Below the pieces are notes generated by a model, which was given only the letters and a program-made list of their open reading frames with translations, did not search any database and had not been told where the DNA came from. Below, one piece after another: positions 10,282 to 20,647 of a stretch of DNA of 64,000 nt (positions are counted from its first letter, which is position 1; each line of letters opens with the position of its first letter). The position numbers were made by a program, and so were the translations under genes. The DNA is from Dictyostelium discoideum (taxonomy: Eukaryota). Where the stretch lies: NCBI GenBank assembly GCA_000004695.1, contig CM000153.2, forward strand, positions 1,696,001 through 1,760,000, given 5' to 3'.

Positions 10282-10442
10282 AAATAAATAAAAACAAATA
10301 AATAAATAAAAAAAAAAAAACAGAAATATAAATATAAATATACATCTTCTTCAGTTTCATCTTTATAGAAATCTCTTTCTCTAATTTCATTTATTAAATT
10401 GTAAATCACCCATTTTAATAATGTGTGAGTTATATTTAAAAA

Positions 10443-10562
10443 TGAAATTAGAGAAAGGGATTTTCATGAAGATGAAGCTGAAGAAGATTGTCCAACAAGT
10501 TGTTCAAGTGATGACCATGATGACACTTAAAAAGACAATAGAACAGGTCCAAATGATGTAAA
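10443..10562 (+). other. 39-codon ATG..TAA ORF of near-normal base composition in the atox1/mo25 divergent promoter
   Basis: ATGAAATTAGAGAAAGGG...CAAATGATGTAA reads MKLEKGIFMKMKLKKIVQQVVQVMTMMTLKKTIEQVQMM. Possible uORF or small gene; no support beyond being open. Confidence 0.15.
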
Positions 10563-10765: not shown

Positions 10766-11061
10766 GTTGATTTTAAAAAAAAAATAAAAAAATAAAAAAA
10801 AAAATTAATTTTTTTAAAAATTTTTTTTTTTTTAAAAAATTTTTTTTTTTTTTTTTTTTTTTTTTCTCAATAATAACTAAAAATAATACGCCACAAAGTC
10901 AAAAGAGTATTGTTTTTGCTATATCATATAGTATATAGATAATCGTTAAAATTATATATTTAATATATTTTATAAAAAATTAAAGTAAAAAATAATAATA
11001 ATAATAATAAAGAAATTTAATATATAAACAAAAAAAAAGAGACAAAGAGAGAGAAAATAAA

Positions 11062-11391
11062 ATGAATATCTTTTTTAATAAAAAACAAAAGACCCCATCA
11101 GAATTGGTTAAATCCATTAAAGAAAGCCTTGCTTCAATGGATAAAAGTGGTCCAAACTCTAAATCAACCGAAAAGGTAAGCTATTTTTAATCATTGGAAT
11201 CATTTTCTATTTATATCTTATTTTTAAAAATAAAATAAAATAAAATAAAATAAAATAAAATAAAATAAAAAAAAAAAAAAGATCATACCACAGTGACTAT
11301 CAATTTTTTTTTTCTTTTACTCTTTCTTTCCTTCTTTCTTCCTTAATAAATATTAACATTATCACACCCTCCTTCAATTTAATCAAAAAAA

Positions 11392-11423
<32 letters not shown>

Positions 11424-12242
11424 AAAAGGCATCAGAAGAAATTTCAAAATGTTTACAAGAGATTAAAAAGATATTACATGGTGATTCAGAGCATGAACCA
11501 AATCAAGAGGTTGTTGCTGTATTATCAAATGAAATATGTACCAGTGATTTGGTACAAATCCTTATTAAAGATTTAAACAAACTCGAGTTTGAAGCTAAAA
11601 AAGATGTAGCTCAAATTTTCAATATTTTATTAAGACATAAAAATGGTGCTCGTTCACCAATTGTAGAATATATCGCTAAAAATCCAGAAATTTTAGATTC
11701 ATTAGTTAAAGGGTAATTAGTACTTAAATATAGTATAATAGACAGATAAAATATACATACCTACAGGAGTGATCGATCGATAGATAGGTAGATAGATATA
11801 TAGATAAATAAATAATTATAGGAAGATAGTGATAGTTTAGTAATAATAGAAAATATCATTCCTCCCTCCCTCCAATTAATATCAAATACTGACATAAAAT
11901 ACCTAAATAAACACATACATACATACATACATAAATAATCATTTATTTTAAATTATTAGTTACGAACAACAGGATATTGCATTAAATTGTGGTACAATGC
12001 TTAGGGAATGTATCAAGCATGAATCATTGGCTAAAATTTTAATATATTCACCAAACTTTTGGGAGTTCTTTGAATTTGTTGAAGTTTCAAATTTTGATGT
12101 TGCTTCTGATACATTTGCCACCTTTAAAGAGATTTTAACAAAACATAAAACACTTAGCGCTGAATTTTTAGAAAAGAATTACGATCAGGTATATTTCATA
12201 TATATATTTATTTATTTTTAGTCATAGGATAAATTATTCTAA

Positions 12243-12275
<33 letters not shown>

Positions 12276-12396
12276 CTTTCTCTCTTTTCTTTTTTTTTCT
12301 CCTTTCAATCAATAATACAGGTTTTTGAAAAATATACTACTTTATTAAACTCACAAAATTATGTTACAAGAAGACAATCTATCAAGGTAAATAATA

Positions 12397-12465
<69 letters not shown>

Positions 12466-12958
12466 CAGCAATAGTTTATATAGTAAGAGAGTTTTTTTAG
12501 TTTTTAAGAGTTCTATAGCTTTTAGGTGAGCTTTTATTAGATCGTTCAAATTTTAATATTATGCCGTTTATATATCAGTTCAGCAGCAAACCTTAAATTC
12601 ATGATGAACCTTTTAAGAGATAAATCAAAGAGTATTCAATATGAAGCATTCCATGTTTTCAAAGTTTTTGTTGCTAACCCAAACAAAACAAAACCAATCC
12701 TTGAAATTTTAACTAAAAACAAAGAGAAATTAATAGCTTTCTTATCACAATTCCATAATGATAAAGGTATATTTAAATTTATTTTTTTTTTTTTTTTCAA
12801 AAAAAAAAAAAAAAAAAAAAAAAAAAGAAAACATCCCCCCTAACTATAGTTATTATTATTTATTATTATTTTATAAATTATTAATAAAAACAGAGGAAGA
12901 TCAATTCAGTGACGAAAAGAATTTCTTGGTTAAACAAATTCAAGCTATCCAAGGATAA
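11062..12958 (+). CDS. mo25: MO25/CAB39 scaffold protein (LKB1-STRAD and STE20 cofactor); 6 exons, about 334 aa, with an apparent 1-nt frame break in exon 5
   Basis: Exons: 11062..11175, 11429..11712, 11960..12188, 12321..12386, 12519..12766, 12894..12958. Alignment to human MO25 is collinear over the whole protein ([23 protein letters not shown].., [29 protein letters not shown].., [10 protein letters not shown]|[15 protein letters not shown].., [37 protein letters not shown].., [16 protein letters not shown]). Between NFNIM and [12 protein letters not shown] the frame slips by +1 at ATGCCG, about 12561..12566. Removing one C restores NFNIM-RL-YISS, matching human NFTIM-TK-YISK. Confidence 0.85.
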
Positions 12959-12970
12959 ACTTTTTTTTTA

Positions 12971-13001
<31 letters not shown>

Positions 13002-13282
13002 TTATTACTTTTTTTTATCTTTATCATAAAAATATATCATCAATCACTATCCATAATCGCTCAAATAATAATAATAATAATAATAATAAAATAATAATGA
13101 TAATAACAATTCAAAAATTAATAACCAACCTGTAGTTTTTTAAAAATCCAAATAAATAAAAAAAAAAAAAAAAAAAAAAAATAGTAACAATAATAAAAAA
13201 AAACAAATTAAAAAAAAAATAACAAACAAGTAAATACATTTAAATAAATAGCAACGTATAGAAGAGCCATCTAAACTTTGTA

Positions 13283-16490: not shown

Positions 16491-18131
16491 TTAACTTTCA
16501 AAATAAACTTGAAGTAAACTATCTTCAGCAGGTACACCAACTCTTAATACCATAGTACCTAACATACTTCTACAACCTTGACCAGTATGAACATAAAGAT
16601 AATTATTACCATTTCTCCAAAGTGAATAATCTGGAATACCAGTGATACCAACCATTGTTAATGAGAGTAAATCTGAACGAATACCAATTTGACCACCATG
16701 AGTATGACCAGAGAAAGTGATACAACCATAATCGGTTGGAATGAATTTAAAAGAACCAGGATCATGAAGTAATGCAATTCTTGGTATACCTTGGATGGGT
16801 GGATAAGCAGAACAAACCTCATGGATATGTTGTTGTCTTGCTTTATTTCTATAGTCAAAACCAGTGATTTGAATTTTGCCAATACGAGTTTCAACCAAAA
16901 CACTTTGATCAATTAAAAGTGGACATTGAATCGTCTTTAAAGCTCTCTCTAAAATTTCCATACAACCTTCCTCTAAATCATGATTTCCAACACAAGCGAA
17001 AACCTTTCCATGTGGTAGTTTCTTTAATGGTGCCAATGCTATCTCCAAGGTATTCTCTGGATTGAATGATTCGGATGTAAAGAAATCACCAGTTAATAGT
17101 ACTAAATCTGGATTTAATTTAACGGTACTCTCACAAATCTCTGTTAAACGTTCACATGACATCATTGGACCTAAATGTGGATCTGCGATTTGAATGATCG
17201 AGAGTGGTTGTTTAAAGTCTACAATTTGCTCATTGTGATCTGATAATGGTTGGATTTTAACACGTTTTAATGATTTCTTTGGTGTTATCAATTGTTCATT
17301 CTCCATCTCTTCATTTGATGATGTTTTCAAATAGATGTCTTTTACTTGCCATTTATTTGGTGGACGTGTTATAAGTGTTTGATATAACCCGATTATACTT
17401 AACACCAATGGTATTAACATTATAAACATACCAACCAATGATGGAATGAATGGTACAACCAAATAGAATGGTATCGATAGTATCATTGTTGTGAAGAATA
17501 CCGATGATGGATACGACACTAAATATAAATAAAGTTTTGGACGCATTTTACATTTTGATAATACTAAATGTTGAATGTAAACAGTTGAGTGTAAATAAAT
17601 CAATATGAGCAATGGTAGCCACATAATGCCTCGGTATCTATACCCACTGACAGCATTGTTCTCTTGATCCACCACAAAGAATGGTCTTAAAATGTACATT
17701 GAAAAAAGTATGTTGTAAAGTGAATAGAATGAAAATGATACTGCCATTAATGCAGTGATACCTTTTGATCTTATAAATGGGGAGAATCCCTTCTTCCTAT
17801 AGAAATATATTAAAATTGGTACCAATATCAACCATGATGGTAATCCAAATATATAAAATGGTAATGTTAATCTTCCTTTAACTCTTGCTGCCAATACAAA
17901 TGAAATCGTTGGTAATGATATTGCCAATAAAACAATTACTATCTTTGCAAATTTACTAACTGGATGTCCAATTGATTTCTCTGTTTCTTTATTTAAATTA
18001 CATTTTGCTTCAATATATTTATATGGTTGATTTGATTGATCTGTTGTTGTTGTTGTTGTTGTTGTCGATGGTTCATCCCATTCTTTCATTAAAGACATTT
18101 GTTGTTGTTGTTTTTCTTTTCTATTTTTCAT
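16491..18131 (-). CDS. multi-pass transmembrane protein with C-terminal calcineurin-like metallophosphoesterase domain (TMPPE-like), 546 aa
   Basis: Single exon. The N-terminal half has 6-8 hydrophobic helices. The C-terminal half carries metallophosphoesterase motifs: IADPHLG, GDFF, GNHD, GHTHGG. Confidence 0.75.
   Translation of the reverse strand: MKNRKEKQQQQMSLMKEWDEPSTTTTTTTTDQSNQPYKYIEAKCNLNKETEKSIGHPVSKFAKIVIVLLAISLPTISFVLAARVKGRLTLPFYIFGLPSWLILVPILIYFYRKKGFSPFIRSKGITALMAVSFSFYSLYNILFSMYILRPFFVVDQENNAVSGYRYRGIMWLPLLILIYLHSTVYIQHLVLSKCKMRPKLYLYLVSYPSSVFFTTMILSIPFYLVVPFIPSLVGMFIMLIPLVLSIIGLYQTLITRPPNKWQVKDIYLKTSSNEEMENEQLITPKKSLKRVKIQPLSDHNEQIVDFKQPLSIIQIADPHLGPMMSCERLTEICESTVKLNPDLVLLTGDFFTSESFNPENTLEIALAPLKKLPHGKVFACVGNHDLEEGCMEILERALKTIQCPLLIDQSVLVETRIGKIQITGFDYRNKARQQHIHEVCSAYPPIQGIPRIALLHDPGSFKFIPTDYGCITFSGHTHGGQIGIRSDLLSLTMVGITGIPDYSLWRNGNNYLYVHTGQGCRSMLGTMVLRVGVPAEDSLLQVYFES

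Positions 18132-18782: not shown

Positions 18783-20647
<1,865 letters not shown>

What the first reader, a model, noticed from the sequence alone, without database searches (positions are those of the whole stretch)
12555..12575. MO25 homolog carries a single-base frame break inside an otherwise perfectly conserved exon
Alignment to human MO25 is collinear residue by residue on both sides (..[15 protein letters not shown] in one frame, [19 protein letters not shown].. in the +1 frame). The switch occurs at ATGCCGTTTATAT. Deleting one C of CC (12564..12565) yields NFNIM-RL-YISS, exactly the human spacing (NFTIM-TK-YISK). So this is an extra base in the window relative to a functional ORF. It could be a homopolymer sequencing/assembly error, a strain-specific null allele, or a nascent pseudogene of a normally essential scaffold.
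Basis: partly seen in the sequence, partly recalled or inferred. Interest (0 to 1): 0.5.

Follow-up and report, generated by a model that had tools for sequence, protein, structure and literature searches.

The report
Sequencing-error patch breaks MO25 gene
The frame break in this Dictyostelium MO25 gene is real in the window, but it lies in a roughly 670-base stretch of faulty base calls that no other genome or cDNA shares, so it is an assembly artefact and not a broken gene.

Summary
The window (21% G+C, Dictyostelium discoideum laboratory lineage) carries a six-exon MO25/CAB39 gene on the + strand.

The lesion is not a single extra base. The window reads CCGTTTA where every other sequence reads ACTAAA (Thr-Lys, as in human MO25). 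A second private change at 12600 turns Leu into Phe.

Four independent sequences agree against the window:
- a cDNA contig, otherwise 100% identical to the window apart from one base of a 3'-UTR T run
- a chromosome-level assembly of the same lineage, 99.4% identical over 21.7 kb
- two wild isolates

All four give an intact 334-aa MO25.

Against the same-lineage assembly, 15 of 22 substitutions fall in 667 bp (12483-13149; P about 3e-18). All 15 are transversions. In intron 4, every T that follows an A is read as G (7 of 7), and no T that follows a T is (0 of 13).

This is a low-quality stretch of the source assembly, probably the Sanger AX4 reference. Its practical effect is a wrong 265-aa public gene model. 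There is no pseudogene, null allele or recoding. Interest is low, apart from the annotation fix.

The parts
10883..11061 (+). 5' UTR of the MO25 mRNA, as far as the cDNA contig reaches
   Evidence: cDNA contig L002 positions 1-179 are collinear with and 100% identical to the window.
11062..11175 (+). MO25 exon 1 (starts at the ATG)
   Evidence: Exon boundary with a GT donor. cDNA L002 is 100% identical.
11429..11712 (+). MO25 exon 2
   Evidence: AG/GT boundaries. cDNA is 100% identical.
11960..12188 (+). MO25 exon 3
   Evidence: AG/GT boundaries. cDNA is 100% identical. The public 265-aa model P0065 reads through its donor into intron 3.
12321..12386 (+). MO25 exon 4
   Evidence: AG/GT boundaries. 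cDNA is 100% identical.
12519..12766 (+). MO25 exon 5, which contains the frame break. It is 248 nt in the window and 247 nt in the cDNA and the other assemblies.
12894..12958 (+). MO25 exon 6, with the TAA stop at 12956-12958
12564..12570 (+). The frame-breaking lesion. The window reads CCGTTTA where the cDNA and three other assemblies read ACTAAA (Thr-Lys): three substitutions plus one inserted base.
12600..12600 (+). Window-private C where all others have A. It turns the conserved Leu of NLKLMM into Phe.
   Evidence: Human MO25 also has Leu here.
12483..12510 (+). Seven window-private G-for-T calls in intron 4. Each is a T that follows an A (7 of 7), and none of the 13 T-after-T positions is affected.
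   Evidence: Fisher P = 1.3e-5.
12483..13149 (.). Low-quality patch of the source assembly. It holds 15 substitutions and one 1-base insertion that are private to the window. Their density rises from right (13149) to left (12483).
   Evidence: (15 of 22 substitutions in 3.1% of the compared length; binomial P = 2.8e-18).
10442..10558 (+). Upstream 'exon' used by the public 265-aa gene model P0065. The cDNA contig does not support it. Coordinates are approximate.
   Evidence: tblastn of P0065 on the window. cDNA L002 is collinear with the genome from 10883 through the model's acceptor near 11040.

Best explanation
The frame break is an error in the genome sequence the window was taken from, not a feature of the organism. 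A stretch of about 670 bp (12483-13149) appears to rest on poor base calls. The likeliest source is the low-quality tail of a single Sanger read, or one damaged clone, in the D. discoideum AX4-type reference. In that stretch A/T positions were recorded as G/C or swapped, and one base was inserted. This turns ATG ACT AAA TAT (M-T-K-Y) into ATG CCG TTT ATA T.. and shifts the frame of MO25 exon 5. The real gene is an ordinary, intact, expressed six-exon MO25/CAB39 orthologue of 334 aa. The only real-world consequence is annotation: the public protein predicted on this sequence (UniParc UPI00004E32D2, 265 aa) stops inside intron 3 and starts with an unsupported exon. Shown here: the lesion and the patch are private to the window, other sequences are intact, and the differences have a clustered, odd spectrum. 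Inferred: the source is the AX4 Sanger reference and the cause is base-calling or low coverage. No raw reads were available.
For: (1) cDNA contig L002 (Logan assembly of run SRR24091726) is 100% identical to the window over the 5'UTR, exons 1-4, the rest of exon 5 and the coding part of exon 6. It differs inside the gene only at 12564-12569 and 12600, and encodes an uninterrupted 334-aa protein. Its one other difference is a single base in a 3'-UTR T run. (2) L014 (GCA_054883475.1, CM142510.1) is the same lineage as the window: 99.44% identity over 21.7 kb, with most gaps in homopolymer runs. With the window's exon structure it gives the same intact 334-aa protein. (3) Two wild isolates (L001, L003) differ from the window at about 1% of exon positions and heavily in the UTR. 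They still agree with L014 and L002 at every patch position. All other dictyostelid MO25 proteins and human MO25 read IMTKYIS...NLKLMM. (4) 15 of the 22 substitutions against L014 lie in 667 bp, binomial P = 2.8e-18. All 15 are transversions (T>G x7, A>C x5, A>T x3) and there are no transitions. (5) In 12483-12510 every T preceded by A is G in the window (7/7) and no T preceded by T is (0/13), Fisher P = 1.3e-5. That context dependence fits a base caller, not mutation. (6) The measured nuclear mutation rate of D. discoideum is 2.9e-11 per site per generation, so about 0.002 real substitutions are expected in 667 bp over 1e5 generations (PMC3466296). In that study 1916 of 1917 candidate differences from the reference were shared by more than one line. 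The authors attributed these to reference errors, to differences between their ancestor clone and the reference, or to mutations that arose before the lines were founded. (7) The truncated 256-aa product and the 'RL/KF' repaired product are absent from a 15-billion-protein collection, while the intact one is present. P0065 maps 100% onto the window.
Against: No raw reads or quality values for the window's source were available, so the error itself was not seen directly. The strains behind SRR24091726 and GCA_054883475.1 are not known to me. If both are AX2-type and the window is AX4, a private AX4 change is not formally excluded. Only one cDNA contig covering the site exists in the collection searched.
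Confidence: 0.93

Rival explanations
1. A real, strain-private null allele. The sequenced clone (for example AX4) suffered a localized burst of mutations that hit MO25 exon 5 and truncates the protein after NFNIM, removing the last ~88 of 334 residues.
For: The break is in the window. The strains of the comparison sequences are unknown. Laboratory strains do carry private lesions.
Against: It would need 15 substitutions plus an insertion in 667 bp, against 7 substitutions in the other 21 kb. It would also need an all-transversion spectrum, a strict AT-to-AG context, and a mutation rate of 2.9e-11 per site per generation. A same-lineage cDNA and a same-lineage genome are intact. No truncated product is on record.
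Confidence: 0.04
2. The genome sequence is right and expression restores the frame, by programmed +1 ribosomal frameshifting at AUG-CCG-U, by a 13-nt micro-intron (GTTTATATATCAG, 12566-12578), or by RNA editing.
For: Removing 12566-12578 would restore the frame, and the segment has GT..AG ends (read). CCG is a G+C-rich codon in a 21% G+C genome.
Against: The cDNA keeps the corresponding bases (ACTAAATATATCAG), so nothing is spliced out, and a 13-nt intron would delete conserved residues YIS. Three genome assemblies already carry the in-frame DNA sequence, so there is nothing to recode or edit. No slippery motif is present.
Confidence: 0.01
3. Gene conversion or a templated mutation from a diverged copy elsewhere in the genome introduced the patch.
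For: Clustered changes are what a conversion tract gives.
Against: There is no donor for GCCGTTTATA in the 64-kb window beyond chance. The changes are all transversions with a dinucleotide context, not the mixed spectrum of a diverged paralogue. Only one MO25 per D. discoideum assembly appeared among the best hits. The whole genome could not be searched.
Confidence: 0.01

Closest known systems
MO25 / CAB39 (Pfam PF08569), the scaffold of the LKB1-STRAD complex and of MST/GCK-family kinases; human MO25-alpha structure 1UPK
   Same: The true D. discoideum protein (P0001, identical to the L002 and L014 translations) matches the Mo25 profile end to end (positions 2-331 of 332, 481.6 bits). It aligns with human CAB39 over residues 4-332 (E = 4.5e-129), including IMTKYIS and [13 protein letters not shown] around the supposed break.
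   Different: Read as it stands, the window's copy covers only profile positions 2-244. That difference is the artefact, not biology.
Consensus errors in low-coverage stretches of Sanger-era shotgun assemblies of AT-rich genomes (D. discoideum AX4 reference)
   Same: The discrepancies are private to one assembly, clustered over about one read length and context-dependent, and their density rises towards one end. Saxer et al. 2012 (PMC3466296) found 1916 candidate differences from the reference shared by more than one line. They attributed them to reference errors, to ancestor-versus-reference differences, or to mutations that arose before the lines were founded.
   Different: I could not see traces, quality values or coverage, and the identity of the source assembly is inferred from the 2005-era UniParc model P0065 mapping 100% onto the window.
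Truncated AX4-type gene model UPI00004E32D2 (P0065, 265 aa)
   Same: It maps at 100% identity onto window exons 1-3 and onto the read-through of intron 3.
   Different: It lacks exons 4-6 and adds an upstream exon (about 10442-10558) that the cDNA contig does not use.

Membership tests
MO25/CAB39 (Pfam PF08569) | Full-length match to the Mo25 profile above the gathering score | tested here: met
   P0001 (the corrected gene) scores 481.6 bits against a cut-off of 31.2 and covers profile positions 2-331 of 332. The window's as-is product scores 328.7 bits but covers only positions 2-244.
MO25/CAB39 (Pfam PF08569) | Collinear similarity to a structurally solved MO25 | tested here: met
   1upk_A, E = 4.5e-129, residues 4-332 aligned to 4-333 with a single one-residue gap.
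MO25/CAB39 (Pfam PF08569) | Binds and activates STRAD/LKB1 or MST-type kinases | not testable with these tools
   This is a biochemical property. No Dictyostelium MO25 study was found in the paper library.
Assembly/base-calling artefact | The variant is absent from independent sequences of the same lineage | tested here: met
   cDNA L002 and assembly L014 both carry ACTAAA and A at 12600.
Assembly/base-calling artefact | Discrepancies are clustered over about one read length and have a non-mutational spectrum | tested here: met
   15 of 22 substitutions fall in 667 bp (P = 2.8e-18). All are transversions. The AT-to-AG context is 7/7 against 0/13.
Assembly/base-calling artefact | Low coverage or low quality values at the site in the source assembly's reads | not testable with these tools
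   No traces or reads of the source were available.
Pseudogene / null allele | The disabling lesion is present in the organism's DNA and transcripts | tested here: not met
   A same-lineage genome and cDNA are intact. No frameshifted product is in the protein collection.
Programmed ribosomal frameshift / recoding | The frame break is conserved in DNA of related strains and species | tested here: not met
   All other D. discoideum assemblies and all other dictyostelids have a single open frame.

The most novel reading that the evidence does not exclude
The 667-bp patch is a genuine hypermutated tract in the sequenced laboratory clone. In that case the widely used AX4-type 'wild type' would be a natural MO25 truncation mutant and would tolerate loss of the scaffold's C-terminal repeats. 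That would bear on every LKB1/AMPK and Hippo/MST study done in the strain.
Probability: 0.04. Interest if true: 0.5.

Novelty: not a real feature. Interest (0 to 1): 0.08.

Why it matters
As biology it does not matter: D. discoideum has an ordinary, intact, expressed MO25. It matters a little for annotation. The public protein predicted on this sequence is a 265-aa chimera of an unsupported 5' exon, exons 1-3 and intron read-through. Orthology tables, proteomics databases and knockout designs based on it will therefore treat MO25 as truncated or atypical in the model dictyostelid. The correct CDS uses exons 11062-11175, 11429-11712, 11960-12188, 12321-12386, 12519-12766 and 12894-12958, with ACTAAA at the lesion and A at 12600. 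The patch also shows that window-private G/C calls in AT-rich Dictyostelium sequence should be suspected before a pseudogene is called.

Tried and rejected
- **Micro-intron.** GTTTATATATCAG (12566-12578) would restore the frame. It was rejected because the cDNA retains the homologous bases and conserved residues would be lost.
- **Programmed +1 frameshift or RNA editing.** Rejected because other genomes already carry the in-frame DNA.
- **Templated or quasi-palindrome mutation.** I searched the window for a donor of GCCGTTTATA and found no more matches than chance gives.
- **Frameshifted product in public proteins.** Searches with the C-terminal 125 aa and with the frameshifted tail found no D. 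discoideum fragment. Both searches returned only proteins of about the query's length, so these negatives are weak.
- **Metagenome scan** for either variant of the site: no match.
- **Literature.** Searches for the run and assembly accessions found nothing, so the strains behind L002 and L014 remain unidentified. No paper on Dictyostelium MO25 turned up.
- **Extending the same-lineage comparison** to the rest of the window through two other ORFs failed, because neither exact product is on record. The background error rate therefore rests on window 6425-28163 only.

Full report
**What is in the window.** The window is 21.4% G+C and is Dictyostelium DNA. On the + strand lies a six-exon gene with GT-AG introns. 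Its exons are 11062-11175, 11429-11712, 11960-12188, 12321-12386, 12519-12766 and 12894-12958. The spliced product is MO25/CAB39. Read as it stands, exon 5 gives ...[15 protein letters not shown] and then [10 protein letters not shown]-stop. The MO25 sequence continues in the +1 frame as [20 protein letters not shown]....

**What the lesion really is.** All of them read [19 protein letters not shown]. It also returned a 265-aa protein, P0065, that is 100% identical to the window over exons 1-3.

P0001 is encoded on a 1216-nt Logan contig from run SRR24091726 (L002), which is a spliced cDNA. Aligned to the window, L002 is 100% identical over 179 nt of 5'UTR, exons 1-4, the rest of exon 5 and the coding part of exon 6. 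It differs inside the gene at only two places. At 12564-12570 the window has CCGTTTA where the cDNA has ACTAAA. At 12600 the window has C where the cDNA has A. The only other difference is one base in a T run of the 3'UTR. So the lesion is three substitutions plus one inserted base, with a further substitution 31 nt downstream. It is not a single extra C, and the true residues are Thr-Lys and Leu, exactly as in human MO25.

**Lineage control.** Two wild-isolate assemblies (L001, GCA_054859355.1; L003, GCA_054859385.1) differ from the window at about 1% of exon positions. In the 5'UTR they differ by 6-7 mismatches and more than 20 gap positions. The perfect identity of L002 elsewhere therefore places it in the window's own clonal lineage.

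An exact-protein look-up of the neighbouring phosphoesterase ORF (16491-18131) brought in L014, from chromosome record CM142510.1 of GCA_054883475.1. L014 is 99.44% identical to window 6425-28163. Most of the gap positions are homopolymer-length differences. It is thus a second, independently assembled genome of the same lineage. With the window's exon coordinates, its MO25 translates without interruption into 334 aa, identical to P0001 and to the ORF of L002.

**The break sits in a patch of private differences.** Of the 22 substitutions between the window and L014, 15 lie in 12483-13149. That is 667 bp, or 3.1% of the compared length (binomial P = 2.8e-18). The only indel outside an A/T run also lies there.
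- Seven are in intron 4: 12483, 12487, 12489, 12491, 12500, 12508 and 12510.
- Four are in exon 5: 12564, 12568, 12569 and 12600.
- Two are in intron 5: 12836 and 12839.
- Two lie downstream of the stop codon: 13111 and 13149.

At every one of these positions the wild isolates agree with L014, and with L002 where it is exonic. The window's states are therefore private to it.

All 15 are transversions (T>G x7, A>C x5, A>T x3) and none is a transition. Within 12483-12510 every T that follows an A is read as G in the window (7 of 7). None of the 13 T's that follow a T is changed (Fisher P = 1.3e-5). The density of discrepancies rises steadily from 13149 leftwards to 12483. A read on the minus strand whose quality decays over about 700 nt would give that gradient. 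This last point is inference.

**Why not a real mutation.** The measured nuclear mutation rate of D. discoideum is 2.9e-11 per site per generation (PMC3466296). Even 1e5 generations would then give about 0.002 substitutions in 667 bp, against the 15 observed. In the same study, 1916 of 1917 candidate differences from the AX4 reference were shared by more than one line. The authors attributed these to reference errors, to differences between their ancestor clone and the reference, or to mutations that arose before the lines were founded, so errors in that reference are a recognised explanation for such differences.

No donor sequence for a templated change exists in the window. Two further protein searches and a metagenome scan found no independent instance of the frameshifted form. 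These are weak negatives.

**Recoding alternatives.** A 13-nt GT..AG segment (12566-12578) would restore the frame if it were removed. The cDNA retains the homologous bases, however, and removal would delete conserved residues. Programmed frameshifting and RNA editing are unnecessary, because the DNA of three other assemblies is already in frame.

**Source and consequence.** P0065 is UniParc UPI00004E32D2. It maps at 100% onto the window as four pieces:
- an upstream exon at about 10442-10558
- a segment starting near 11041 that runs into exon 1
- exon 2
- exon 3, continued by read-through of intron 3 to a stop

The cDNA does not use the upstream exon, because it is collinear with the genome from 10883. 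No full-length MO25 entry carrying a UniRef or nr source label was returned for D. discoideum, although such entries exist for D. purpureum, Polysphondylium violaceum, Tieghemostelium lacteum, Cavenderia fasciculata and Acytostelium subglobosum. I infer that the window comes from the Sanger-era AX4-type reference, and that the error patch is why that reference lacks a correct MO25 model. I did not show this directly.

**Family membership.** The corrected protein matches Pfam Mo25 (PF08569) end to end, at 481.6 bits over profile positions 2-331 of 332. The window's as-is product stops at profile position 244. The corrected protein aligns with human CAB39 (1UPK) over residues 4-332 at E = 4.5e-129. 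Kinase-scaffold activity cannot be tested here, and no paper on Dictyostelium MO25 was found.

**Verdict.** The best explanation, at about 0.93, is a low-quality stretch of the source assembly. A genuine strain-private null allele keeps about 0.04, because the strains behind L002 and L014 could not be identified and no raw reads were available. Recoding and gene conversion are close to excluded. Interest is low, and the value lies in correcting the gene model.

Noticed in passing
window 10442-10558 and 11041-12218: The public 265-aa model P0065 (UPI00004E32D2) begins with an upstream exon that the cDNA contig does not use, and ends by reading through intron 3 (…[14 protein letters not shown]). 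It is therefore wrong at both ends, not only truncated.
   Followed up: partly
window 6425-28163 against L014: Nearly all indels between the window and the same-lineage assembly GCA_054883475.1 lie in A or T runs, and in all but one the window's run is longer (3 to 13 bases, 100 gap positions in total). I could not tell whether the long-read-style assembly compresses these runs, the window over-extends them, or the lengths really vary.
   Followed up: no
window 10218, 14453, 18804, 18863: These are isolated single-base differences from L014 outside the patch. At 18804 (window A, L014 G) wild isolate L003 agrees with L014, so this may be another window-private error or variant. It lies near a mitochondrial-carrier gene, and its coding effect was not checked.
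   Followed up: no
L003 10001-11941 (P0121, 350 aa); L014 15138-17026 (363-aa model); P0006 (D. dimigraforme, 345 aa): Annotated MO25 models in the newer assemblies are longer than 334 aa. P0121 keeps part of the (AAT)n-rich intron 4 as coding sequence (…[23 protein letters not shown]…). P0006 carries an extra Asn-rich segment at the exon 2/3 junction, probably for the same reason, though that locus was not examined. The 363-aa L014 model was not examined either. The cDNA supports the 334-aa form.
   Followed up: partly
L005-L013 (Logan runs SRR26869256-68, SRR28564540-43): Ten RNA-seq runs carry the window's neighbouring phosphoesterase (16491-18131) as an exact full-length protein, but only one run (SRR24091726) has a full-length MO25 contig. 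MO25 transcripts are probably fragmented in the other assemblies.
   Followed up: no
window 12387-12518: Intron 4 contains a long (AAT)n tract (about 12395-12464) just upstream of the error patch. Together with the A/T runs in intron 5 (12785-12830), this low-complexity sequence may explain poor read coverage here.
   Followed up: no
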